Source of the DNA: Candidatus Magasanikiibacteriota bacterium
Lineage (GTDB): Bacteria > Patescibacteriota > Patescibacteriia > Magasanikbacterales > GWA2-37-8
Direction: 5' to 3'
Length of the DNA: 64,000 bases
NCBI GenBank assembly: GCA_016182085.1
Contig: JACOYB010000004.1
Coordinates: 339,923-403,922, forward strand
The number at the start of each line of letters is the position of its first letter. Position 1 is the first letter of the stretch. Positions 5,212 to 62,463 of this stretch are shown here, piece by piece. The notes beneath the pieces are model-generated. The model did not search any database. It was not told where the DNA came from and was given only the letters and a program-made list of their open reading frames with translations. Made by a program: the position numbers and the translations under genes.

Positions 5212-5703
5212 CTAGGGTCGCAGGAAGACCTTCTCGAATTGGCACTTGGGGACGTTCATCCCGAAGCCCGTGATATCGTTGTTCATGAAGGCCTGTACGC
5301 CCTTGAGGCTGCAAAATCGATACCGCTTGCCACCTTCGCCCTGGTAGGTGATGATGGTTCGGCTTGGATTGGTCTTGGCCGTGATCGGGAAGATGCCGTA
5401 GTCGGTGGGCAAGATGCGCACCGTCTCGTCTTCGCCATCGCCATCGCCGTCGGGAAGGATCTCGAAGACCATGGGTTCGGGCAAGGACGGCACATGAATG
5501 GCGTACCTCGCGCCCCACCTGCCTTCGAGTTCCTCGATACCGGGAAGGTCGGAAACAATGATCCGATCGGGGTGAGTGGTCGTTGCGTCGACCGTGAAGG
5601 TGACCGGTGTCGAATCCACGGCGAGAGTGCGGTGGGTGCTCTGGCCGGCGCAGCCGACGAGAACGAGGATGAGAGCAGTGACAGAAACAATTCTGAGCAG
5701 CAT
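5212..5703 (-). CDS. predicted secreted lipoprotein (163 aa) on a roughly 60% GC island; function unknown
   Basis: N-terminus MLLRIVSVTALILVLVGCAGQ is a signal peptide with a lipobox LVGC. Codons are GC3-rich, unlike the host. A GGAG ribosome-binding site lies 9 nt upstream. The overlapping plus-strand and other-frame ORFs look like antisense artefacts. Confidence 0.6.
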   Translation of the reverse strand: MLLRIVSVTALILVLVGCAGQSTHRTLAVDSTPVTFTVDATTTHPDRIIVSDLPGIEELEGRWGARYAIHVPSLPEPMVFEILPDGDGDGEDETVRILPTDYGIFPITAKTNPSRTIITYQGEGGKRYRFCSLKGVQAFMNNDITGFGMNVPKCQFEKVFLRP

Positions 5704-15746: not shown

Positions 15747-15780
15747 AAACCCGCCCGCAAGGGCGGGTTTTTGTTTTTAA
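15747..15780 (+). terminator. rho-independent terminator after the surface-protein gene
   Basis: AAAACCCGCCCGCAAGGGCGGGTTTTTGTTTTT. Confidence 0.8.
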
Positions 15781-15855
15781 TTATTTTTTCTTTTTTTATT
15801 TTTAATCCTTTTCTCTTTGTAGTTGTTTTATTTAGTAAAAACATTTTCCCGTCTT

Positions 15856-16345
15856 TTATCACCCCATTTTGTCAGCAAAAACACACCTCCCTTACCCCCT
15901 TTCTTTTAAAAGAAAGGGGGTGGAAAGAAATCGCTCGCGGTGGAAAGATTCAGAAAATTTAGGATTCGTTATTCGTTAATTTTCAAAACTCGCCAGCTTA
16001 TTATAAAAGCTGTCTCAAACATTGAAAATTTACTTTGGCCGCCTTAAGGCGGCCAAAGCTAACACTCAAACTCATCTCTAAATTTAACTTCGTCCTTTCC
16101 AAAGCGAGCCCGGACAATCGACGGACACCGTTGTTGTCCAACGGTCGATAACCGAGCATATGGCGAGTGATGCTACTGGCCACGGTGAGGGTAAGCGGTG
16201 CCTTCTTTAAGGCACGGGCAGTCATAAGGTAGCTTGCTGATTGACTGCCCGAGTGAACCCTAAACCGATTGGCAGTAGCGAAATGAGACATCAGCGAGGC
16301 AGTTTTGGGGCATCACCCCGTTTTGCTGACAAAATGGGGTGATAA
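15856..16345. mobile_element. 490-bp element bounded by perfect 25-bp terminal inverted repeats (TTATCACCCCATTTTGTCAGCAAAA), with a GC-enriched, hairpin-dense interior; MITE-like or structured ncRNA locus
   Basis: Left repeat 15856-15880 and its exact reverse complement at 16321-16345. The interior holds perfect hairpins: CCCCCTTTCTTTTAAAAGAAAGGGGG (15895-15920), CTTTGGCCGCCTTAAGGCGGCCAAAG (16033-16058), GTGCCTTCTTTAAGGCAC, GGGCAGTCA...TGACTGCCC, and ATCGACGG...CCGTCGAT. Interior GC is about 50% against a 38% background. No target-site duplication was seen. Confidence 0.45.
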
Positions 16346-16420
16346 GGGTTGGCAAGTGGTTTTTTATTAAAGAAAGCGGCTATAGAAGTATTGCAAAAGA
16401 TGAAAAGGAAAGCTCTTAGC

Positions 16421-16499: not shown

Positions 16500-18305
16500 A
16501 TGAACATCCGCAACGTTGCCATCATCGCCCACGTAGACCACGGAAAGACCACACTTGTGGATGCTTTGTTGCGTCAATCCAAAACTAAATTATCCAAAGA
16601 ACAAGATAGTCAGATTACAATCATGGATAGTAATGATTTGGAACGTGAACGCGGTATTACGATTTTTTCCAAAAATGCTTCCGTAGAATGGAAAGATACA
16701 AAAATAAATATCATTGATACCCCGGGACACGCTGACTTTGGCGGGGAAGTAGAAAGAGTTTTGAAATTAGCTGATGGTTGTTTGTTGCTTGTAGACGCCA
16801 AAGAAGGCCCAATGCCTCAGACCAGATTTGTGCTCAAAAAAGCTTTGCAAATGGGGCATAAAGTAATTGTAGTTATAAATAAAATTGATAAACCAGGCGC
16901 CAGACCAAATTGGGTGCTAGACAAAACTTTTGATTTGTTTGTGGAACTTGGAGCCAGCGACGAAGTGGCTGAATTCCCAGTTATTTATGCTTCCGCCAAA
17001 AATGGTAAGGCCGGTATGGCACCGGATCTAGAAGCAATGACCGACATTACTCCTGTTTTTGATACGGTGTTAAAATTTATTCCTGAACCAAAAGTAGATC
17101 CAAATGCGCCGTTGCAAATACTCATTACTACTATTACCGGCGATAATTTTAAAGGTAGAATTGCGACTGGCAGAATCTATAACGGCACAATCAAAACTGG
17201 CCAAGATATAATGCATATAAATAGAGAAGGCGTAATGAAAAAATGCCGCGTTATGGCGCTCATGACATTTTTTGGTTTAGAAAGAATAGAAGTTCAAGAA
17301 GCGTTTGCCGGAGATGTGGTGGCTATTGCCGGTATTGGAGATATAAACATCGGTGAAACTGTGGCTGATGTTGCCAGCCCGGTTGCTTTGCCGCTTCTTA
17401 CCATAGAAGAACCAACTGTTAAAATGACTTTTAGTGTAAATAATTCTCCGTTTGCCGGAAAAGAAGGGGAATTTACCACTTCCAGACAGATTCGCGATAG
17501 ATTATTTAAAGAACTAGAAACAGACATGGCTCTAAAGGTGGCCGATGGTACCGAAGGCAATTGGATTGTTTCTGGCCGCGGTGAATTGCATTTAGCAATA
17601 CTTATCGAACGTCTGCGCCGAGAAGGATTTGAATTCCAGATTTCTCGTCCGCAAGTTATTATTAAAGAAGTTGATGGTCAAAAAATGACTCCTTATGAAC
17701 AAGTGTTTGTGGAAGTTCCCGAAGCTCATTCTGGAGCGGTAATCCAAAAGTTGGGCAGCCGCCACGGAGAATTACGAGAAATGAGAACCGAAAATGGCAT
17801 AGTTTTCTTAGAGTTTATTATTCCAACCCGCGGGTTGTTTGGTTATCGTACCGAATTTTTGACCGACACCAGAGGTTTGGGAATTATCAATACAATTTTT
17901 TATCAGTACATGCCGGATCCGGCCAATTGGCGCGAACGCGATCAAGGATCGCTTGTGGCTCACGAAACTGGTGTTACCAATTTGTATGGACTTCTTAATG
18001 TGCAAGACAGAGGAGTTATGTTTATTGGCCCTGGTGTGCAGGTTTACAAAGGCCAGGTAGTGGGTCAAAATGCGCGCAGTGAAGATATATCTGTAAATGT
18101 ATGTAAAGAAAAACAACTCTCTAACATGCGTTCCAAAGGCGATGGCGTGAGCGAACATTTTAACGCGCCAAAAGTTATGGATTTGGAAGAAGCGATGGAA
18201 TATATCGGTGATGATGAACTTGTAGAAATTACTCCAAAAAGCATTCGCATCAGAAAAGTTATCTTGGATGAAAGCGAAGCCAAACGAAAAGCACGGGGAA
18301 TGTAA
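16500..18305 (+). CDS. typA: translational GTPase TypA/BipA
   Basis: N-terminus MNIRNVAIIAHVDHGKTTLVDALL with G1-G5 motifs, an EF-G-like domain architecture, and a length of 601 aa. Confidence 0.92.
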   Translation: MNIRNVAIIAHVDHGKTTLVDALLRQSKTKLSKEQDSQITIMDSNDLERERGITIFSKNASVEWKDTKINIIDTPGHADFGGEVERVLKLADGCLLLVDAKEGPMPQTRFVLKKALQMGHKVIVVINKIDKPGARPNWVLDKTFDLFVELGASDEVAEFPVIYASAKNGKAGMAPDLEAMTDITPVFDTVLKFIPEPKVDPNAPLQILITTITGDNFKGRIATGRIYNGTIKTGQDIMHINREGVMKKCRVMALMTFFGLERIEVQEAFAGDVVAIAGIGDINIGETVADVASPVALPLLTIEEPTVKMTFSVNNSPFAGKEGEFTTSRQIRDRLFKELETDMALKVADGTEGNWIVSGRGELHLAILIERLRREGFEFQISRPQVIIKEVDGQKMTPYEQVFVEVPEAHSGAVIQKLGSRHGELREMRTENGIVFLEFIIPTRGLFGYRTEFLTDTRGLGIINTIFYQYMPDPANWRERDQGSLVAHETGVTNLYGLLNVQDRGVMFIGPGVQVYKGQVVGQNARSEDISVNVCKEKQLSNMRSKGDGVSEHFNAPKVMDLEEAMEYIGDDELVEITPKSIRIRKVILDESEAKRKARGM

Positions 18306-18414
18306 GATCAGTCCTTAAAGTTTATAAAGTTACGGATATTTTGACGGACAATTATTTTTTTGTTAAAGTTTATTAACTTGTGACTTTATAGACTTTTGAC
18401 TTTTCAAACTTCAA

Positions 18415-18486
18415 TGGCCCCATCGTCTATCAGTTAGGACACGACCTTCTCAAGGTTGAGAGACGGGTGCGATTCCCGTTGGGGCT
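18415..18486 (+). tRNA. tRNA-Glu (anticodon CTC)
   Basis: Acceptor GGCCCCA/TGGGGCT. The D-arm TCGTCTA...AGGACAC resembles bacterial tRNA-Glu. Anticodon stem CGACC/GGTTG with loop TTCTCAA; T-arm ACGGG-TGCGATT-CCCGT. The T-loop is slightly non-canonical. Confidence 0.7.
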
Positions 18487-18487
18487 A

Positions 18488-18524
18488 CAAATATAAAAGA
18501 CACCGTTTTGGTGTCTTTTATATT
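18488..18524. terminator. perfect palindromic (bidirectional) terminator hairpin
   Basis: AAATATAAAAGACACCGTTTTGGTGTCTTTTATATTT. The flanks extend into an imperfect 35-bp inverted repeat that includes an inverted copy of the tRNA T-arm (CAACGGGAATCGCAG, 18536-18550). Confidence 0.7.
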
Positions 18525-18526
18525 TG

Positions 18527-18660
18527 TTAGGGTCCACAACGGGAATCGCAGGGAAAGGGTGAAAACGGAAGTTTTCACTTGCTGAGGAAAGTCCACGAAA
18601 ACCCGAAGGTTTTCGTGAGAGCCCGCTTGCGGGCGAGCGATGCCCTAGTTGGGGCTACAA
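18527..18660 (+). ncRNA. candidate structured RNA / integration-scar segment: three perfect tetraloop hairpins plus a GAGGAAAGUCC motif, ending in a degenerate copy of the tRNA-Glu T-arm and 3' acceptor
   Basis: Hairpins GTGAAAAC-GGAA-GTTTTCAC (18558-18577), CACGAAAACC-CGAA-GGTTTTCGTG (18593-18616) and GCCCGC-TT-GCGGGC (18620-18633); GAGGAAAGTCC at 18584-18594. GTTGGGGCTACAA at 18647-18659 directly repeats the tRNA 3' end at 18477-18489. Confidence 0.35.
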
Positions 18661-18704
18661 CTCCACAAACCGAACACTTCTGGTCGTTTCTGGAGATAAG
18701 TTGA

Positions 18705-18735
18705 TAAAAGCCATCTTAGATGAGATGGCTTTTAT
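18705..18735 (+). terminator. terminator-like hairpin AAAAGCCATCTTAGATGAGATGGCTTTT
   Basis: Perfect 10-bp stem, 8-nt loop, followed by a T-rich tract. Confidence 0.55.
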
Positions 18736-18772
18736 GATTTATCGAAGAACGTCAATTCTATTATATGGCGAT

Positions 18773-18801
18773 CTTGACAAAACGCTCATTTTATGGTATT
18801 A
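18773..18801 (+). promoter_or_regulatory. near-consensus sigma-70 promoter with extended -10 (TTGACA, 17 nt, TGgTATTAT) driving the GC-rich membrane-protein ORF
   Basis: cTTGACAaaacgctcattttaTGgTATTAT, then a CCTCAGC...GCTGAGG leader hairpin and a GGAGG ribosome-binding site 6 nt before the ATG at 18870. Confidence 0.6.
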
Positions 18802-18869
18802 TCGACTGTTTCCTCAGCCTAGCAGCTTTATGGCTTTTAAGCTGAGGAAATCAATCCTCGGAGGTTCCC

Positions 18870-19505
18870 ATGGAAAACGTCTGGGTCGGTATCGTTCTGT
18901 TCGCTCTCGCTGCCACCTGCCTCGCTCTCGTCGAGATCGAGTCGGAGGGCAAGCACGGGTGGGCAGAGAAGTTGCCCACCTGGTACCGCACCAAGGGCCG
19001 ACTGGCGCGGATCTACGCCATCATCATGGCGAAGAAGCCGCTCACCGGCTATCACCTCTGGATGTTCTTCTTCCCGATCTTCTTCTTCCACTTCCAGTTC
19101 GCCTTCGCGTCCTGGTCGCTGGAGAAGGAGCTGCTCACCTGGGCGGTCTATTTCGCCTGGTGTGTGCTGTGGGACTACCACTGGTTCGTCATGAACCCCG
19201 CCTATAAGGGCAGGTTCAAGAAGGACTACGTCTGGTGGCATGCGAAGAGCGCTTGGGTGTTCGACTGGTTTCCGGTCGACTACCTGGTGGGCACGGGCTT
19301 CTCGTTCGTGCTCGCAGCCGGAGCAGCCTTGGTCGCTGGCAACAGCGGCGTGTTGCTCAACCACTTCTATGTGGTGGCGGGTTGGTGGGGCTATACGGCG
19401 ATCCTCAAGATCATCGTGAGTCCATACTACCATCGCTGGCATATCAAGATGCATCATTGGTCGCGTGACCAACGCGACCAAGTCGACATCTTCCACCAGG
19501 ACTAA
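18870..19505 (+). CDS. Trp-rich polytopic membrane protein (211 aa) of unknown function on a roughly 60% GC island
   Basis: Strong GC3 codon bias unlike the host. Four to five hydrophobic segments, W-rich (WDYHWFVMNPAYKGRFKKDYVWWHAKSAWVFDWFPVDY), GGAGG ribosome-binding site. The overlapping antisense ORFs look spurious. Confidence 0.6.
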   Translation: MENVWVGIVLFALAATCLALVEIESEGKHGWAEKLPTWYRTKGRLARIYAIIMAKKPLTGYHLWMFFFPIFFFHFQFAFASWSLEKELLTWAVYFAWCVLWDYHWFVMNPAYKGRFKKDYVWWHAKSAWVFDWFPVDYLVGTGFSFVLAAGAALVAGNSGVLLNHFYVVAGWWGYTAILKIIVSPYYHRWHIKMHHWSRDQRDQVDIFHQD

Positions 19506-19575
19506 ACCCTCACGGACGCGCCACCGCAAGGCGTCTGATGGGACACAAAGAAAGGAGCAGTACTTGCGGTCTCAT

Positions 19576-19609
19576 CAAAAACAACTTTCACCCGAAGGTT
19601 GTTTTTGTT
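19576..19609 (+). terminator. rho-independent terminator after the GC-rich membrane-protein gene
   Basis: AAAAACAACTTTCACCCGAAGGTTGTTTTTGTTT. Confidence 0.65.
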
Positions 19610-19929
19610 TATGTTATATTTGAGAGGTGGTAAGTAAGTAGACAGTAGAGAGGAGTCGTGATATTATGGCGGTAATATTAGTTTTTTATTACTACTTAAT
19701 AACATAGGTCCAAACACCAGCCACCTCTCCTTTATCTCCTGAACTAAGGTGTGCCAGAAAAAAGACAAGTAGGCTACACCAAAAACTAAAAAACCGTTCG
19801 CAAATTCCTCCTGCTTTACCTCTAAGTTAATATTTAGAAATAAAGCAGATGGGCGAACGGTTTTTTGTTTCCCACCTATTTTTTAAAGGTGGGCCGCGAA
19901 TGTACATGGTTCCTCCTGTGAACGGTTGT

Positions 19930-21072
19930 TCAGCGAACGGCGAGGGTGTTCCCGCCGAACTCGATGCCCAGCGGACTGATCACGACCTTCTTCTCGCTGC
20001 TCGCCTCGATGTGGCCGGCGACGTAGGCCTGGAACGGCTGGCCCTGCGCTGCCTCGAGCACCTTGCTCACGTCCTCGGGGGCAACGTAGATCGCGAAGCC
20101 CGCACCCATGTTGAAGGTGCTATAGGCTTCCTTGTCGCTGACCGGTCCGTGCTGCTGGATGAAGCGGAAGATCGGCGACGGGTTGGGCGGCAGCTCGTCG
20201 ATCACGTAGGTGAAGTTGCCCTCCGCGCGCATGAGCTTGCGCCAGCCGTGCCCCGTCACGTTGACGGCGTAGTGGATGTCGATCCCAGTCATCTGGCACG
20301 AACGGATGAGCTCGACATAGATGTGCGTCGGGTCGAGCAGCATCTCGCCGTACGTCTGGCGCATGTTGACCTGGGTGAGGTAGCCGTCCGGAAGCTTCTT
20401 GGCGATCTTGCGCGCGAGCGTGTATCCGTTGGCGTGGACTCCCGAGCTCGTGAACATCACGATGACGTCGCCGTCCTTGATGCGGCCCGGGTTGATGACC
20501 TTCTCCTTGGGTGCGATGATGCCCGTGGCCGAACCCGAGAGGACGGCCGTGAGCGGCAGGACGATACCCTGGAGCGTCGGTGTCTCGCCTCCGCCCCAGA
20601 CGCAGCCGGCCTGGAGGCAGGCGCGCTTCGTCCCCTCAACCAAGTCATGGCAGCGACGGTCGTTCTTGAACCAGTCCGAGTCGCCGACAGCGAGGTGCTG
20701 GGCGTAGGAGACCGGCAGCGCGCCGAGCGTGATCATGTCATTGACTGCCATCGCCACGTTGCACTGGGCAACCTGGTCGTAGAAGGTTCTCGTGCGGCCA
20801 GCGAAGCTGATGCCGTCCACGAGCTGGAGCATGGCGTCGGCCACCAAGTTCTTGGTGCCGAGGCCTTCCTCGACGTGGGCGATGTAGCCCCAGGGCGTCT
20901 CGATGAGGAACGCGCTCTCACCACGGCTCCACCCGACCACCTTGAATCCGAACCGGTCGGCACACCGATCCGTATCCCGGGCGGCAAGCTGCGCCACCCG
21001 CTTGAACGGATCCATGGTGTCGTAGTTAACGCCGGTAGCGGCGTAGGTCAGACCCTTTTTGGAGTCACTCAT
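19930..21072 (-). CDS. purM: PurM-family protein (phosphoribosylformylglycinamidine cyclo-ligase / AIR synthase-like), divergent, about 62% GC
   Basis: Blocks alignable to E. coli PurM: GVNYDTMDPFKR (GVDIDAGNALVER), EGLGTK (DGVGTK), VAMAVNDMITLGALP (VAMCVNDLVVQGAEP), CLQAGCVWGGGET (CLQSGCSLVGGET), DGDVIVMFTSSGVHANGYTLARKI ([24 protein letters not shown]) and YSTFNMGAGFAIYV (YRTFNCGVGMIIAL). The start is taken at MSDSKKG (ATG 21070-21072) because the upstream in-frame extension is AT-rich host-like sequence. The gene is convergent with the membrane-protein ORF. Confidence 0.65.
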   Translation of the reverse strand: MSDSKKGLTYAATGVNYDTMDPFKRVAQLAARDTDRCADRFGFKVVGWSRGESAFLIETPWGYIAHVEEGLGTKNLVADAMLQLVDGISFAGRTRTFYDQVAQCNVAMAVNDMITLGALPVSYAQHLAVGDSDWFKNDRRCHDLVEGTKRACLQAGCVWGGGETPTLQGIVLPLTAVLSGSATGIIAPKEKVINPGRIKDGDVIVMFTSSGVHANGYTLARKIAKKLPDGYLTQVNMRQTYGEMLLDPTHIYVELIRSCQMTGIDIHYAVNVTGHGWRKLMRAEGNFTYVIDELPPNPSPIFRFIQQHGPVSDKEAYSTFNMGAGFAIYVAPEDVSKVLEAAQGQPFQAYVAGHIEASSEKKVVISPLGIEFGGNTLAVR

Positions 21073-21259
21073 TGATGTTTTCTCCCGAAAAGTTGTTGGG
21101 TTTCGTAAGCAAAAACTATCATAAAGGGAGAAATAATTCAAGGGTTTTTAGAAACTGCGTAGTTTGCAATTTTGAATATTTTATTTATTATTTTTGACAT
21201 CCTACAAAAAACCTGTCATTCTAATTTTATCAACAATTGTAGAAAGAAGTGGGGGAACC

Positions 21260-21727
21260 ATGAAACGCACACTGCTGTATCAAATATGGATTCTGTTTTT
21301 GATCTACACCGTGTGGTCTTTGGCCAGTGAGGCAGTGTTTACCGGGGTGGCAGATATAATCCGGGATTATCAGGCGGGTAGACCGTTCAACTCTCATCTG
21401 CCTTGTCGTACCAGTCTTTGGAGTATCCTGGTCTATGGCGTTCCGGCCAGCTTGGGTTTTACTTTCGTTGACAGGCTGGTACCTGGATTCTTCAAGTGGC
21501 ACTGGGCTAAGCGGGGATTCATCTATACCATCGGCACATTTGCCTCTGAATACGCTTGGGGTGATTTTCTGGAATGGCTCACAGGGAGTTGTCCGTGGCA
21601 ATACAGAGATTCGTCAATTGCCCTGCTGCGCTATATCAATCCCGAGTACTTTCTGTTGTGGTTCATGTTCGGCTTTTCTTTGGAGTGGATTAGGGTAAAA
21701 CTCCTTCCAAGGATAATCGGCATCTAG
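21260..21727 (+). CDS. hypothetical polytopic membrane protein (about 156 aa), intermediate GC (about 49%)
   Basis: MKRTLLYQIWILFLIYTVWSLA... with several hydrophobic segments. A GGGGGAA ribosome-binding site precedes the ATG at 21260. The tracker's 21194 start would cross AT-rich intergenic sequence. Confidence 0.5.
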   Translation: MKRTLLYQIWILFLIYTVWSLASEAVFTGVADIIRDYQAGRPFNSHLPCRTSLWSILVYGVPASLGFTFVDRLVPGFFKWHWAKRGFIYTIGTFASEYAWGDFLEWLTGSCPWQYRDSSIALLRYINPEYFLLWFMFGFSLEWIRVKLLPRIIGI

Positions 21728-21756
21728 GCCTAAATCTTGGAATGATAAGGAGCACC

Positions 21757-21793
21757 CCCGCGTATGTTAGTGATACGCGGGTTGTTGTTTTTA
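21757..21793 (+). terminator. rho-independent terminator
   Basis: CCCCCGCGTATGTTAGTGATACGCGGG followed by TTGTTGTTTTT. Confidence 0.7.
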
Positions 21794-21885
21794 TAATTAG
21801 ATTTTATTTTTTAAATAAAGTAATCCATTGACAATTACCTAAAAAATTGTTAGCCTAATTTTTACAAAACCACAAGGAGTTCCTA

Positions 21886-22827
21886 ATGGAAATGGAGCCG
21901 ATCAGCGACTGGGAAGGTCGCATCCTCGGCGGCCGTTACCAGCTCAAAGAGTGGATTCATAAAGGCAGTATGGGCCATGTGTTCAAGGCTTGGGACTGCC
22001 AAAACCAATTCTGGGTGGTAGTTAAGGCTATTGATAAAAAACACGAACTGGTCCAACGGCTAAAACGTGAAGCGGATACGCTCAGGCGTCTCAACGACCC
22101 GCGGATCGTGCGTCTGCTTGACTGTGGGATAGATAAGGATCTTTATTTTCTAGTGTTGGAATACCTGGAAGGTAAAGATTTGGGGATGTGTATTGATACG
22201 CACGATCTCGTCTTGACCCAAGAGTTTTGCATTTCCATAGGGGTGCAAATACTGGAAGGTGTTGAGCCAATGCACACCGCCGGAGTAGTGCATCGCGATA
22301 TCAAACCCGCAAATGTGTTCCTGGTTTCAGGTCAAGTAAAAATTCTTGACTTTGGTTTGGTCAAGCTTGTGAACCGCCCCGGTCCGCGCCGGAGAATGCT
22401 GACCAACTATCCGGTTGTGATTGGTACGCTGGGGTATCTTTCGCCGGAACAAATGCGAGGTGAAGAGGTTGATTGCCGTTCCGATTTGTATGCGTGCGGT
22501 ATTGTGCTCTACGAACTCCTTACGGGCGAGCTGCCTTTTTACAAAACCGGAGAGCTTGAGTATAAGGCGTGGAAAAAAGCTGCGGCGCGAGAATACTGGG
22601 AGCGGCCATTACGTCCGTTTCCAAGCATCTTTCGCGTTCCGAAGCGTGTTCAGGAAGTTGTCTGGAAAGCGCTGGCAGTTGATCCGGCCAATCGTTATCA
22701 GACAGCCCAAGAGATGCGCCTCGCGCTCTTGGCAGCGAGACCGTTCTCGTTTAAGCGGTTTGTGAAGGAGGCTGTTGGAACAATTGGAGGAAAAACCAGA
22801 AATGCTTGGAGGGCAATCTGGTCTTAG
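21886..22827 (+). CDS. Hanks-type Ser/Thr protein kinase (catalytic domain only, 313 aa), about 50% GC
   Basis: GSMGHVF glycine loop, VVVKAI, HRDIKPANVFL catalytic loop, DFGLVK, GTLGYLSPEQ activation segment. Confidence 0.8.
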   Translation: MEMEPISDWEGRILGGRYQLKEWIHKGSMGHVFKAWDCQNQFWVVVKAIDKKHELVQRLKREADTLRRLNDPRIVRLLDCGIDKDLYFLVLEYLEGKDLGMCIDTHDLVLTQEFCISIGVQILEGVEPMHTAGVVHRDIKPANVFLVSGQVKILDFGLVKLVNRPGPRRRMLTNYPVVIGTLGYLSPEQMRGEEVDCRSDLYACGIVLYELLTGELPFYKTGELEYKAWKKAAAREYWERPLRPFPSIFRVPKRVQEVVWKALAVDPANRYQTAQEMRLALLAARPFSFKRFVKEAVGTIGGKTRNAWRAIWS

Positions 22828-26551: not shown

Positions 26552-26953
26552 ATGTTGAAAGTCAAATGGCGTTCTGATGATGGTCAGGGCGAAGTTTGCC
26601 CTGATTCTGGCGGTCCTGTCACCCCCGACATGGTTGAAGAAATGGTCAGGGCGGCCATTGCCTTCGTGGCCAACCTTCGGTTCGTGGCCAAGCCTCAGAA
26701 GGTTTCAAAGGTTTCAGCCGTCTTTTTCATGGTGAGCAAGCCTCAAGACGTCATGGAAAAGCAGCGTAAGGTACTGCGGCAAAACAAGAAGCTGGGTACA
26801 GCTGATCCAGAGCCTTACCCTGTCTACGGATGGATTGAAGTCGCCGCGGATTCCAACCTGGCGAACATCATGTCCAAGTTCGCCCATGAGAAGGATCGGG
26901 TTGAACGTAGCACGGTATTTACCACCTTTATGATCCAGGCCATGAAGGTGTAG
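26552..26953 (+). CDS. hypothetical protein (133 aa) on a roughly 52% GC segment
   Basis: ORF with GC3-rich codons, preceded by TTGACA / TAGTAT promoter-like boxes, a tRNA T-arm-like hairpin CCCGGGTTCAATCCGGG and a purine-rich ribosome-binding site. No family recognised. Confidence 0.45.
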   Translation: MLKVKWRSDDGQGEVCPDSGGPVTPDMVEEMVRAAIAFVANLRFVAKPQKVSKVSAVFFMVSKPQDVMEKQRKVLRQNKKLGTADPEPYPVYGWIEVAADSNLANIMSKFAHEKDRVERSTVFTTFMIQAMKV

Positions 26954-42718: not shown

Positions 42719-43366
42719 ATGGGCAGAACGAACCAAACGATCAAGATTCTGGGCACCACGGGCTTCCTGAGCTGCAGCTACGGCCGAGATCCTCAGTGGA
42801 GCACCATGATCGAGATCGATGACCCCGAGGAGCTCGACTGGCAGGACATTCCGCCCGAGCTGAAGTTCGAGGGCAAGAAGCTCATCGTGTGCGTCAAGAT
42901 CGGTAGCCGTAGCAACCATGCGTTCACGAGCGCGGAGCTGCGCCAGATCGGACAGGAGCTCCGCTGGACGAAGAACAACCCGCTCGGCGCCCAGCTCAAG
43001 GAGCTTCGCGAGCGTCGTGATTTCCTCAAGCAGCAGTACGACCAGGACAAGGCTGGCAACTCCAGTCGTCTCCTGCTCACCTTCCGCAAGGGAGGGCCGC
43101 GGAACGAGCTCCAGGCGTCGGATGAGACCGAACCCGGTCGCCGATTCCATCGAGTGTTCGTCCTCGATCGCTACACCCTCGAGCGTGGCAACGTCAAGGA
43201 GGGCGCGACCTACTCCTGCTCCATTAAGCAGGTACTGAAGCAGAACGATCCGCAGGGCAATTTCCAGGGCTTCATGCTCCTCCTCGTCTCGGTCGGGCAC
43301 GAACACTTCGATCCCGACCAGCGGATCCAGAAGTTCGAGGCTGCCATCGCCGCGGGTGCCAAGTAG
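42719..43366 (+). CDS. hypothetical soluble protein (215 aa) on a roughly 62% GC island
   Basis: Strong GC3 bias and AGGAGG ribosome-binding site; no TM segment; no family recognised. The overlapping 278-aa minus-strand ORF looks antisense. Confidence 0.55.
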   Translation: MGRTNQTIKILGTTGFLSCSYGRDPQWSTMIEIDDPEELDWQDIPPELKFEGKKLIVCVKIGSRSNHAFTSAELRQIGQELRWTKNNPLGAQLKELRERRDFLKQQYDQDKAGNSSRLLLTFRKGGPRNELQASDETEPGRRFHRVFVLDRYTLERGNVKEGATYSCSIKQVLKQNDPQGNFQGFMLLLVSVGHEHFDPDQRIQKFEAAIAAGAK

Positions 43367-61893: not shown

Positions 61894-62463
61894 TCAGGGC
61901 TGATTTTGCCAGTAACCGTAACAGGATGTCTCCAGCGTCGGCTTGCGGACAGTCTTGGCCGTGTCCGGACAGCTCTGGTGGAACGTCCACAGCGGCGAGG
62001 CTGCGTCGGCTGCCTGGATATCACTTTCAAGATCCAGGTTCGGTAACCACGCTCCGTAGAGGTAGCAGATGCCGGGCTTGTCGTCCGGGCACACGAACTG
62101 CGTCCCGGGAACTTTGGGCGGGTACTTCTCCTCCGTGGCCCGGAGCATGCGGTTGAGCTCATCGATGAGGGCCTTCTGCTTCCGCATGACATGCAGCAGG
62201 TCGGCTTCGAGCGCGTCCTTCTCGTTGATGAGATTGTTCTTCAGATTGATGACATCGTCCTTCGCCTCGACGATCTCGTTCTTCTGCTCGACCGTGTGCA
62301 CCCATAAGAAGGTGGTAACGGTAAAGAGGAAGAAGTTCAAGACGGTGGCCGCAATCATGATGCGCCTCCATTCCTTGAGCCGGCCGTTTTCGGCCGTGAG
62401 ATCCTGGATTTGCTCCTGGGGGGAGCTGGTCGTCGTTTCGCGTGAGGATTCCATGATAGTCAC
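61894..62463 (-). CDS. hypothetical single-pass membrane protein with a coiled coil and Cys-containing C-terminal domain (189 aa) on a roughly 60% GC island
   Basis: TM helix IMIAATVLNFFLFTVTTFLWV; coiled coil LKNNLINEKDALEADLLHVMRKQKALIDELNRML; C-terminal region with 4 Cys. GC3-rich codons. A host-type promoter TTGACAaaacctcatttttatgcAATCAT lies upstream on the minus strand. The plus-strand ORFs over the same DNA are Arg/Pro-rich antisense artefacts. Confidence 0.55.
   Translation of the reverse strand: MTIMESSRETTTSSPQEQIQDLTAENGRLKEWRRIMIAATVLNFFLFTVTTFLWVHTVEQKNEIVEAKDDVINLKNNLINEKDALEADLLHVMRKQKALIDELNRMLRATEEKYPPKVPGTQFVCPDDKPGICYLYGAWLPNLDLESDIQAADAASPLWTFHQSCPDTAKTVRKPTLETSCYGYWQNQP

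What the first reader, a model, noticed from the sequence alone, without database searches (positions are those of the whole stretch)
18773..21141. Island 2 core: convergent pair of a Trp-rich membrane protein and a divergent orphan PurM-family enzyme
The two most GC-rich ORFs in the window (about 60-62%) are arranged tail-to-tail with a long, multiply-nested AT-rich hairpin region between them (19576-19893; inverted repeats GAGAGGTGG...CCACCTCTC and AAAAACCGTTCGC...GCGAACGGTTTTT). The PurM-like protein keeps the PurM catalytic blocks but has a remodelled N-terminal region (GWSRGESAFLIETPWGYIAHVEEGLGTK and a 15-aa insertion before the VNDxxxxGAxP block). It is alone: no other purine-biosynthesis gene is nearby, and ultra-small genomes normally lack the pathway. 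An orphan PurM-fold ATP-grasp-like enzyme could instead act as a tailoring or maturation ATPase in the way HypE and SelD do. The adjacent W-rich membrane protein is unrecognised.
Basis: partly seen in the sequence, partly recalled or inferred. Interest (0 to 1): 0.6.

Follow-up and report, generated by a model that had tools for sequence, protein, structure and literature searches.

The report
Two unrelated GC-rich acquired genes
Two GC-rich genes in an AT-rich ultra-small (CPR) bacterial genome are separate events, an intact purine-pathway enzyme (PurM) of a widespread subfamily and an uncharacterised membrane protein on a 1.1-kb insertion beside a tRNA gene, so the pair is mostly ordinary, although its GC-rich codons are not fully explained.

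Summary
The sequence features are real. ORF A (18870-19505, +, 211 aa) and ORF B (19930-21072, -, 380 aa) converge, have GC3 of 0.85 and 0.89 against about 0.40 for the genome, and are separated by a strongly structured AT-rich spacer.

They are not one island. A sister genome (L007, 87-96% nt identity, collinear) has ORF B at the same place but lacks a 1,119-bp segment (18660-19778). That segment carries ORF A with its own promoter and terminator and is flanked by a 7-nt repeat copying the tRNA-Glu 3' end.

ORF B is not a divergent singleton. It belongs to a large PurM subfamily found in CPR, Acidobacteriota, Planctomycetota and Verrucomicrobiota. In other genomes this subfamily occupies the purM slot of pur operons (purB-S-Q-L-F-M-N). 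ORF B keeps 102 of 104 family-conserved residues. No other pur gene lies in the 64-kb window; the rest of the genome could not be checked.

ORF A belongs to a conserved membrane-protein family that is in no Pfam, NCBIfam or PHROG model and matches no solved structure.

Horizontal acquisition is the best explanation for the GC-rich codons. It does not account for three things: the enrichment is confined to synonymous sites, it stops at the ORF boundaries, and it recurs in both families across many CPR genomes.

The parts
18416..18488 (+). tRNA-Glu(CTC). Its 3' end (GTTGGGGCTACAA, 18478-18490) is the sequence repeated at the insertion site.
   Evidence: ARAGORN; Rfam tRNA 51.9 bits; repeat family D13.
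18531..18656 (+). Structured, conserved spacer element (four-way junction). Its closing stem is formed by an inverted copy (18534-18550) and a direct, degenerate copy (18632-18659) of the tRNA-Glu 3' end. It is present in the sister genome too, and its 3' end is the insertion point.
   Evidence: MFE -58.4 kcal/mol, z = -4.75. Conserved in L007 with 2 compensatory and 3 one-sided changes. No Rfam match.
18660..19778 (.). 1,119-bp segment absent from sister genome L007. It is bounded by the 7-nt direct repeat GGCTACA (18653-18659 and 19772-19778). The empty site in L007 reads GTTGGGGCTAC|TACGAAAACTAAAAAACCG.
   Evidence: blastn collinearity break; junction alignments.
18774..18802 (+). Sigma-70-type promoter of the ORF A cassette (TTGACA-17-TATTAT with TG, 11 of 12 matches). 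This is where nucleotide homology to the second copy of the cassette (L002) begins.
   Evidence: Promoter scan; 87% nt identity between window 18774-19611 and L002 301-1139.
18808..18851 (+). 5' leader hairpin of ORF A, conserved in L002.
   Evidence: -27.3 kcal/mol, z = -3.6; inverted repeat I9; homology to L002.
18870..19505 (+). ORF A ('W211'): a 211-aa membrane protein with five predicted helices and 8% Trp. GC3 is 0.85, but GC1, GC2 and amino-acid composition are those of AT-rich genomes.
   Evidence: (pLDDT 87.6, pTM 0.83).
19576..19607 (+). Intrinsic terminator of ORF A (14-bp stem followed by a T-run). Homology to L002 ends here.
   Evidence: Terminator scan.
19604..19747 (.). Long imperfect inverted repeat (cores GAGAGGTGG and CCACCTCTC) enclosing a second promoter-like site at 19639-19667. 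It lies inside the inserted segment but is not shared with L002. Function unknown.
   Evidence: Inverted repeat I1; promoter scan; fold.
19788..19866 (.). Nested hairpin 3' of purM (outer arms 14 nt, 100% complementary; inner arms 19811-19848), with T-runs on both strands, followed by a second hairpin at 19871-19893. 96-97% identical in L007. Probably the purM terminator, possibly bidirectional.
   Evidence: Inverted repeats I12 and I19; identity profile; fold.
19930..21072 (-). ORF B: PurM (FGAM cyclo-ligase / AIR synthetase) of the CPR/Acidobacteriota/PVC subfamily. 380 aa, ATG start at 21072, RBS GGGAGA at 21081-21086, GC3 0.89.
   Evidence: Pfam AIRS and AIRS_C; TIGR00878 182 bits; E. coli PurM 1CLI E = 1e-33; homologues; operon context.

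Best explanation
The finding combines two unrelated, compositionally foreign genes that happen to lie tail to tail next to tRNA-Glu in a Candidatus Magasanikbacteria (CPR) genome.

(1) ORF B is a genuine PurM. It should catalyse the ATP-dependent ring closure of FGAM to AIR. It belongs to a subfamily that is the operon-encoded purM of Vicinamibacterales, Verrucomicrobiota, Planctomycetota and some CPR bacteria. It was already at this locus in the common ancestor of this genome and its sister L007. It is intact and under purifying selection, though weaker than for its neighbours.

(2) ORF A is an uncharacterised five-helix membrane protein. It is carried on a self-contained 1.1-kb unit (promoter, leader, ORF, terminator) that entered at a copy of the tRNA-Glu 3' end after the two genomes split. 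A second copy of the same unit sits beside a tRNA and a serine recombinase in another contig.

(3) The GC-rich codons are best read as the residue of horizontal transfer from GC-richer genomes, now drifting toward AT.

Shown: family membership, operon context in other genomes, the indel, the composition and the structured spacer.
Inferred: enzymatic activity, direction of the indel (gain rather than loss), and foreign origin.
Unknown: whether the rest of the purine pathway exists in this genome, and what ORF A does.
For: PurM identity:
- Pfam AIRS (E = 1.2e-9) and AIRS_C (E = 2.7e-14) match.
- purM is the best NCBIfam model (E = 1.6e-53).
- E. coli PurM 1CLI matches at E = 1.1e-33, with the VND, GGET, SSGxHxNG, TGxG and NxGxG blocks aligned.
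- 102 of 104 positions conserved in at least 90% of the family are kept.
- 35 of 83 related loci have a pur gene within 6 kb.
- Pfam-verified gene orders are purB-purS-purQ-purL-purF-[this PurM]-purN in Vicinamibacterales L034, and purB-PurM-purL-purQ-purE-purC in Doudnabacteria L051.
- PurL lies next to the 61%-identical P0003.

Separate histories:
- L007 is collinear with the window and lacks 18660-19778.
- The cassette is 87% identical over 840 bp to L002, in a different context (tRNA, serine recombinase, methyltransferase).
- ORF A is adjacent to PurM only in this organism.

Selection: PurM dN = 0.135, dS = 0.415, omega = 0.33. The dS lies inside the neighbours' range of 0.07-0.75.

Foreign composition:
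- GC3 is 0.85-0.89 against 0.33-0.44.
- Codon choice is typical of a high-GC genome (AAG, GAG, CAG, CTC, GGC, ATC) and uniform across five GC3-rich ORFs.
- 43 of 57 synonymous differences between the window and L007 are G/C versus A/T. About 7-9% of G/C third positions differ per lineage, the order expected for neutral decay (my estimate).
- Both families have native GC-rich members.
- A preprint reports that 93% of Patescibacteriota lack de novo nucleotide synthesis and that the nucleotide-synthesis genes are scattered phylogenetically (10.64898/2026.06.21.733656).
Against: - No GC-rich donor is sampled. Apart from L007 (78%), the closest PurM relatives (61-64%) are CPR-type, and the window, L007 and L003 form one clade inside the CPR clade.
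- GC1, GC2 and the GARP/FYMINK amino-acid composition of both proteins match AT-rich genomes, not GC-rich ones.
- The GC-rich stretch stops within about 35-70 nt of the ORF ends, and the cassette's own promoter and terminator are AT-rich.
- PurM has the highest GC3 among the ORFs of at least 120 aa in its locus (up to about 20 kb) in 15 of 33 AT-rich loci, and W211 shows the same excess in many AT-rich contigs. This asks for many independent transfers, always from GC-richer donors.
- The score falls below the TIGR00878 trusted cut-off (182 against 236 bits).
- Pathway partners were not found: none in the window, and no PurL on a 410,459-bp contig among the 120 best PurL hits.
- A 7-nt flanking repeat is equally compatible with deletion in L007.
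Confidence: 0.6

Rival explanations
1. Stand-alone PurM-fold enzyme with a function outside purine synthesis. In pathway-less CPR bacteria the protein would be kept for another ATP-dependent reaction, for example processing a host-derived intermediate, supplying AIR for thiamine, or a maturation step.
For: - No pur gene lies in the 64 kb.
- 24 of 34 AT-rich loci have no pur neighbour within 6 kb.
- 93% of Patescibacteriota lack de novo nucleotide synthesis, yet the protein keeps 102 of 104 conserved positions with omega = 0.33.
- No PurL on the same contig appears among the top PurL hits.
Against: - The same subfamily, including close relatives that share the insertion (P0003), sits in pur operons.
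- No residue change sets the pathway-less copies apart.
- Many CPR bacteria do have PurL.
- Pur genes are often dispersed, and about 85% of this contig was not visible.
- No HypE or SelD signal was found.
Confidence: 0.13
2. The GC-rich codons are produced or maintained within CPR genomes, acting on particular genes. Candidates are GC-biased gene conversion at recombination hot spots, or selection for GC-ending (host-like) codons. On this view they are not left over from a GC-rich donor.
For: - The enrichment is confined to third positions; amino-acid composition is unchanged.
- It is limited to the ORF, with native-type AT-rich promoters such as TTGACA-17-TATTAT.
- It recurs in two unrelated families across many AT-rich genomes, and the excess is never negative.
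- A clade of PurM genes only 63-64% identical to each other (window/L007, L003, L175) all have GC3 of 0.83-0.90 in AT-richer contexts.
- Identity between the window and L007 drops sharply inside the ORF (97% to 72% at about 19997), which suggests recombination within the gene.
Against: - No such mechanism is known to push GC3 from 0.4 to 0.9 in bacteria.
- Highly expressed genes here (dnaK, typA) are AT-rich at third positions.
- The window-L007 comparison shows G/C-to-A/T differences at about the neutral rate, not active maintenance.
- The outgroup polarisation test was uninformative because the outgroup is itself GC-saturated.
- Several CPR PurM genes show no excess.
Confidence: 0.17
3. ORF A was ancestral at this site and was deleted in L007 through the 7-nt repeat, rather than gained in the window lineage.
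For: A short direct repeat flanks the segment, and one copy remains in L007. There is no recombinase gene within the 1.1 kb.
Against: The ORF's GC3 of 0.85 is foreign. A near-identical unit lies at a different tRNA-linked site next to a serine recombinase. The site copies a tRNA 3' end, which is typical of integration hot spots.
Confidence: 0.15
4. Assembly or binning artefact: GC-rich reads from another organism were joined into an AT-rich contig.
For: The composition switches abruptly at the ORF borders.
Against: An independent assembler gives an identical 4,950-bp contig spanning both junctions. The sister genome from another study has PurM in the same place. The same pattern appears in unrelated contigs.
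Confidence: 0.02

Closest known systems
PurM, phosphoribosylformylglycinamidine cyclo-ligase (E. coli 1CLI; NCBIfam TIGR00878)
   Same: Two-domain AIRS/AIRS_C architecture, the aligned catalytic blocks, and (for the subfamily) the purM position in purQLFMN-type operons.
   Different: The N-terminal 95 residues carry subfamily-specific motifs: SRGES replaces the Gly-rich loop of E. coli PurM, there is a VEEGLGTK block, and TGHGWRK replaces TGGGF. Some members have a 13-15-aa insertion. The score is below the TIGR00878 cut-off. The gene stands alone in this window.
Phage auxiliary purM genes (PHROG 1207)
   Same: A purM gene carried without the rest of the pathway; the profile matches at E = 5e-34.
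   Different: No copy of this subfamily was found in IMG/VR. There are no phage genes around it, and it is syntenic in two bacterial genomes.
Structural-genomics 'putative PurM' orphans 3MDO and 3KIZ; other PurM-superfamily enzymes ThiL, HypE, SelD
   Same: The same superfamily fold.
   Different: Much weaker matches than to true PurM: 3MDO 5e-14, 3KIZ 3e-8, ThiL 23.8 bits, no HypE or SelD hit.
tRNA-linked genomic islets and 'moron'-type single-gene units
   Same: ORF A has its own promoter and terminator, lies at a repeated tRNA 3' end, is present or absent between sister genomes, and has a second copy beside a serine recombinase.
   Different: Only 1.1 kb, with no integrase inside, a repeat of only 7 nt, and no terminal inverted repeats or attC-like core recognised.
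Uncharacterised Megaviridae protein A0A5J6VJU0 and ~145-aa phage homologues
   Same: The same fold and motifs as ORF A (EIEIEG..GWA..LPTW, KPLTGYH, WF.LNP.Y). Foldseek E = 1.5e-6, TM 0.70/0.76.
   Different: 27-45% identity. The phage versions lack the last two helices. None has a known function.

Membership tests
PurM (FGAM cyclo-ligase) | AIRS N-terminal plus AIRS_C domains | tested here: met
   PF00586 39.0 bits and PF02769 54.1 bits, both above their cut-offs.
PurM (FGAM cyclo-ligase) | Score above the equivalog trusted cut-off of TIGR00878 (236.35 bits) | tested here: not met
   182.1 bits, aligned only from residue 96. The whole subfamily, including operon-encoded members, shares the divergent N-terminus.
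PurM (FGAM cyclo-ligase) | Conserved nucleotide/metal and substrate blocks (DGxGTK, VNDxxxxGAxP, GGET, SSGxHxNG, TGxG, NxGxG) | tested here: met
   Residue-level alignment to 1CLI/9JZW from residue 98. The N-terminal GTK block was aligned to an E. coli sequence recalled from memory, so that part is weaker.
PurM (FGAM cyclo-ligase) | Genomic association with other purine-synthesis genes | tested here: inconclusive
   Met for the subfamily: 35 of 83 loci, with purB-S-Q-L-F-M-N order in L034. Not met in this 64-kb window.
PurM (FGAM cyclo-ligase) | FGAM-to-AIR activity | not testable with these tools
   Needs an enzyme assay or complementation.
HypE / SelD / ThiL (other PurM-superfamily enzymes) | Match to the family model | tested here: not met
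   ThiL 23.8 bits against a cut-off of 184. No HypE or SelD model matched at E <= 0.01.
tRNA-targeting integrative element | Integrase gene plus direct repeats of the tRNA 3' end bounding the element | tested here: not met
   No recombinase lies in 18660-19778. Only a 7-nt repeat is present (13 nt shared with the tRNA end at the left side). A serine recombinase is adjacent to the L002 copy.
Any described protein family, for ORF A | Profile or fold match | tested here: not met

The most novel reading that the evidence does not exclude
GC enrichment that is limited to the ORF and to synonymous sites may be a general feature of certain genes in CPR genomes. The pattern is GC3 of 0.8-0.9, unchanged amino-acid composition, native AT-rich promoters and terminators, and the same high-GC codon dialect in at least five ORFs of this window. 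It recurs for PurM and W211 in many AT-rich CPR genomes. It would reflect either continuous gene flow from GC-rich hosts into episymbionts, or a gene-specific force (biased gene conversion, or selection for host-like codons) that keeps these genes GC-rich. A conserved, pathway-less PurM in CPR bacteria would be part of that picture.
Probability: 0.18. Interest if true: 0.65.

Novelty: new member of a known kind. Interest (0 to 1): 0.33.

Why it matters
As filed, the finding resolves into an already annotated purM gene plus a hypothetical membrane protein, so it is not a new system. Three points have some value.

1. A large PurM subfamily falls below the NCBIfam equivalog cut-off and is often labelled only 'AIR synthase-related'. 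Its operon context shows it is the real purM of several phyla.
2. W211 is a well-conserved membrane-protein family with a confident predicted fold and invariant acidic and histidine residues. It occurs in CPR bacteria, in GC-rich contigs from soil and other metagenomes, in phages and in giant viruses, and it has no annotation at all.
3. GC3-rich single genes in AT-rich episymbiont genomes may record gene flow from GC-rich partners. That is relevant to finding the hosts of uncultured CPR bacteria.

Tried and rejected
- Antisense ORF 19849-21075 (408 aa): its codon-position GC (GC1 0.87) mirrors purM, and it is not among the conserved antisense ORFs in L007 or L003. I treat it as an artefact of GC-rich DNA.
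- RNase P-like motif GAGGAAAGTCC at 18584-18594: Rfam finds nothing there, even at E <= 1.
- Phage origin of purM: there is no relative in IMG/VR.
- Functional link between ORF A and purM: they are adjacent only in this organism.
- Polarising synonymous changes with L003 as outgroup gave 18 G/C-to-A/T against 4 A/T-to-G/C. I rejected this as evidence because a GC-saturated outgroup gives about that ratio by composition alone.
- Allele replacement as the cause of 78% protein identity to L007: dS is within the neighbours' range, so faster protein evolution fits better. A recombination breakpoint near 19997 is still possible.
- Decay of purM: rejected, because 102 of 104 conserved positions are intact.
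- Organism names for the closest homologues: the cluster look-up returned none.
- The literature search found nothing specific on orphan purM in Patescibacteria.
Full report
**What is there**

The window is about 42% GC. Two ORFs converge at 18870-19505 (+, 211 aa, 'W211') and 19930-21072 (-, 380 aa). Their GC is 58.5% and 64.1%. Their GC3 is 0.85 and 0.89, while typA, dnaK and other neighbours have GC3 of 0.33-0.44.

The 424-nt spacer is 41.7% GC. It folds at -148.9 kcal/mol against -102 for shuffles (z = -8.2). An independent Logan assembly is 100% identical across window 17721-22670, so the arrangement is not a mis-join.

- The long TTG-start ORF ending at 21141 is an over-extension. Homologues and the sister genome begin at the ATG at 21072.
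- W211 is not the second most GC-rich ORF. 42719-43366 and 5212-5703 are richer.

**Origin and the sister genome**

The exact PurM-like protein is recorded as a phosphoribosylformylglycinamidine cyclo-ligase from a Candidatus Magasanikbacteria MAG, on a 410,459-bp contig. The scan of GTDB species genomes returned L007. It is collinear with window 8196-29835 at 87-96% nucleotide identity.

L007 has the PurM gene at the same place, followed by the same hairpin region and tRNA-Glu. It lacks window 18660-19778. That 1,119-bp segment holds W211 and most of the 'hairpin region'. It is bounded by GGCTACA on both sides (18653-18659 and 19772-19778).

The left junction is a 13-nt copy of the tRNA-Glu 3' end, GTTGGGGCTACAA. 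So the 'island' is two histories. PurM predates the split of the two genomes, and W211 is an indel.

**The W211 unit**

Window 18774-19611 is 87% identical to a second contig, L002. The shared stretch begins exactly at a strong promoter (TTGACA-17-TATTAT, 11 of 12 matches, with TG). It ends at an intrinsic terminator at 19576-19607, and it includes a leader hairpin (z = -3.6).

In L002 the unit lies about 240 bp downstream of a truncated tRNA, next to a large serine recombinase and an N6/N4 methyltransferase. W211 is therefore a self-contained, portable transcription unit. The remaining part of the insert (19612-19771) carries the GAGAGGTGG/CCACCTCTC repeat and a second promoter-like site. It is not shared with L002 and is unexplained.

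I read the indel as a gain, for three reasons: the foreign composition, the second copy at another tRNA-linked site, and the tRNA-end target. Loss in L007 through the 7-nt repeat is not excluded.

**What W211 is**

It has no match in Pfam, NCBIfam or PHROGs, even at E <= 1 in Pfam and PHROGs. Homologues number at least 178 in the protein collection and 385 in JGI metagenomes. About 30 columns are invariant, including the motifs EIExEG..GWA..PTW, KPLTGYH, WDxxWFxxNP and WWH.

AlphaFold gives a confident helical model with five long predicted membrane helices (pLDDT 87.6, pTM 0.83). It has no Foldseek match in the PDB (best E = 4.7). There is one match in BFVD, an uncharacterised Megaviridae protein (E = 1.5e-6). 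Phage contigs encode ~145-aa minimal versions.

In many CPR contigs the gene sits among recR, dnaB, rmuC, L21 and cysS, which looks vertically kept. In 60-73% GC contigs from soil and other metagenomes it matches its surroundings in composition. Its function is unknown. The invariant acidic and histidine residues suggest a membrane enzyme or ion-binding protein, but that is only an inference.

**What the PurM-like protein is**

- It has AIRS and AIRS_C domains.
- purM is by far the best NCBIfam model (182 bits, E = 1.6e-53), though below the equivalog cut-off of 236. ThiL scores 23.8 bits, and HypE and SelD do not appear.
- E. coli PurM (1CLI) matches at E = 1.1e-33 with the catalytic blocks aligned.
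- It is not a singleton. Thousands of homologues exist, and the best 120 are 56-64% identical and full length.
- An alignment of 27 homologues has about 95 invariant columns. The 13-15-aa insertion is shared by about ten of the 27.
- The GTDB scan found at least 596 species with a relative. They include CPR classes, Vicinamibacterales (57-58%), Syntrophaceae, Planctomycetota and Verrucomicrobiota (49-53%).

Clustering the neighbours showed purL in 21 loci, purF in 12, purN in 11, purQ in 9, purC and purB in 6 each, and purE in 5. In all, 35 of 83 loci have at least one pur gene within 6 kb.

Pfam confirms three gene orders:
- purB-purS-purQ-purL-purF-[this PurM]-purN in Vicinamibacterales L034. 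From my own knowledge, this is the Bacillus subtilis order.
- purB-PurM-purL-purQ-purE-purC in Doudnabacteria L051.
- purB-purK-purE-purC-x-PurM in L073.

P0003, which is 61% identical and has the same insertion, lies next to PurL. The window protein deviates at only 2 of 104 family-conserved positions, which equals the family median. It is therefore a normal member of a genuine PurM subfamily, and FGAM cyclo-ligase is the expected activity.

**Is it an orphan?**

Within the 64 kb, yes. tblastn with all neighbour-derived Pur proteins finds only PurM itself. Among the 120 best relatives of a CPR PurL, none lies on a 410,459-bp contig, whereas one shares its contig length with another PurM. This is weak evidence, because the lists are truncated and the MAG has other contigs.

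A preprint reports that 93% of Patescibacteriota lack de novo nucleotide synthesis and that the relevant genes are scattered phylogenetically. Many CPR bacteria do encode PurL. Whether this genome has the pathway is the main open point.

Against L007 the gene has dN = 0.135, dS = 0.415 and omega = 0.33. Neighbours have dN of 0.013-0.07 and omega of 0.03-0.16, with dS in the same range. This indicates purifying but relaxed selection, with the changes at variable positions.

**The GC-rich codons**

Evidence for foreign origin:
- Codon usage is that of a high-GC genome (AAG, GAG, CAG, CTC>CTG, GGC, ATC, TTC). It is the same in PurM, W211 and three other unannotated ORFs: 5212-5703, 42719-43366 and 61894-62463.
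- Most synonymous differences between the window and L007 are G/C versus A/T (43 of 57). Lineage-specific A/T third positions amount to about 7-9% of G/C sites. This is close to what neutral AT-biased decay would give over this divergence (rough estimate of mine).
- Both gene families have native GC-rich members.

Evidence against a simple transfer:
- No GC-rich donor is sampled. In a neighbour-joining tree the window, L007 and L003 form a clade inside the CPR clade.
- GC1, GC2 and amino-acid composition are those of AT-rich genomes. For PurM, GC1/GC2 are 0.61/0.43 and GARP is 0.29, against 0.64-0.72/0.45-0.51 and 0.32-0.40 in GC-rich genomes. W211 behaves likewise.
- The enrichment stops close to the ORF ends. 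The flanking regulatory DNA that travels with W211 is AT-rich.
- The pattern recurs. PurM has the highest GC3 among the ORFs of at least 120 aa in its locus (up to about 20 kb) in 15 of 33 AT-rich loci. The median GC3 excess is +0.14 where no pur neighbour is present.
- P0002 (64% identical) has GC3 of 0.90 beside a gene at 0.55, and L003 has 0.83 against 0.38.
- W211 shows the same excess in several AT-rich contigs.

I keep horizontal acquisition followed by amelioration as the best explanation. I give a process acting within CPR genomes, or recurrent flow from hosts, a real share of the probability.

**Verdict**

The proposed maturation-ATPase role is unsupported. ORF B is an ordinary, already annotated purM of an under-recognised subfamily. 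ORF A is a conserved protein of unknown function on a small mobile unit. The only surprising element is the ORF-limited, synonymous-only GC enrichment that recurs across CPR genomes, and I could not explain it conclusively.

Noticed in passing
window 18531-18656 (and L007 9826-9958): A ~126-nt conserved element just 3' of tRNA-Glu folds as a four-way junction (z = -4.75). Its closing stem pairs an inverted copy with a direct copy of the tRNA 3' end, and the inverted copy is 94% complementary to the tRNA's own 3' end. Between the two genomes it shows 2 compensatory and 3 wobble changes. There is no Rfam match. It may be a structured RNA or the scar of earlier integration.
   Followed up: partly
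window 18487-18527 vs L007 9959-9997: The perfect 18-bp hairpin right after tRNA-Glu is replaced in the sister genome by a hairpin of unrelated stem sequence at the same position. The architecture is the same but the sequence differs.
   Followed up: no
window 5212-5703 (-), 26552-26953 (+), 42719-43366 (+), 61894-62463 (-): Four more single ORFs have elevated GC3 (0.77, 0.63, 0.83, 0.81) and no Pfam match. They use the same high-GC codon dialect as PurM and W211. 42719-43366 has a promoter about 120 nt upstream that resembles the W211 promoter (TTGACAAAAGGGTGATTTTATGATAT). 26552-26953 is only 65% identical to its L007 orthologue (omega = 0.37).
   Followed up: partly
loci L003, L007, L009, L013, L015, L018, L022, L025, L028, L042, L175 and others: In many AT-rich CPR genomes purM has the highest GC3 among the ORFs of at least 120 aa in its locus (15 of 33 loci, z up to 8). 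Where purL is adjacent it is also elevated (for example L028 0.50 against 0.26, L020 0.60 against 0.30).
   Followed up: partly
window 16500-18305; L008, L016, L036; W211 loci L140-L172: typA/bipA lies within about 7 kb of purM in four separate CPR lineages. It lies convergent to W211 in eight GC-rich contigs (the only soil contigs are among them). This is more often than chance would suggest for small genomes, and it is unexplained.
   Followed up: no
window 15779-16419: A further 641-bp segment just upstream of typA is absent from L007. It contains a 96-aa ORF at 16001-16291 (-).
   Followed up: no
window 19930-19996 vs 19997-20146: Identity to L007 falls from 97% to 72% within the 3' end of purM. 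This suggests a recombination breakpoint inside the gene.
   Followed up: no
window 21886-22827: The Ser/Thr protein kinase next door evolves fast relative to its neighbours (83% identity to L007, omega = 0.33). It has a hypervariable stretch at 22469-22690 and GC3 of 0.54.
   Followed up: no
L031 6155-11113: purL and purM read as one continuous 1,652-codon ORF in this AT-rich contig. This may be a natural PurL-PurM fusion.
   Followed up: no
window 19849-21075 (+): A 408-codon ORF lies antisense to purM. Its codon-position GC mirrors purM's, so it is probably an artefact of GC-rich DNA.
   Followed up: partly
window 21260-21727 (+): The 155-aa membrane protein divergent from purM is 92% identical in L007. 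It has a sub-threshold match to PF06541 (CmpB, 21.9 bits against a cut-off of 25.9) and GC3 of 0.57.
   Followed up: no
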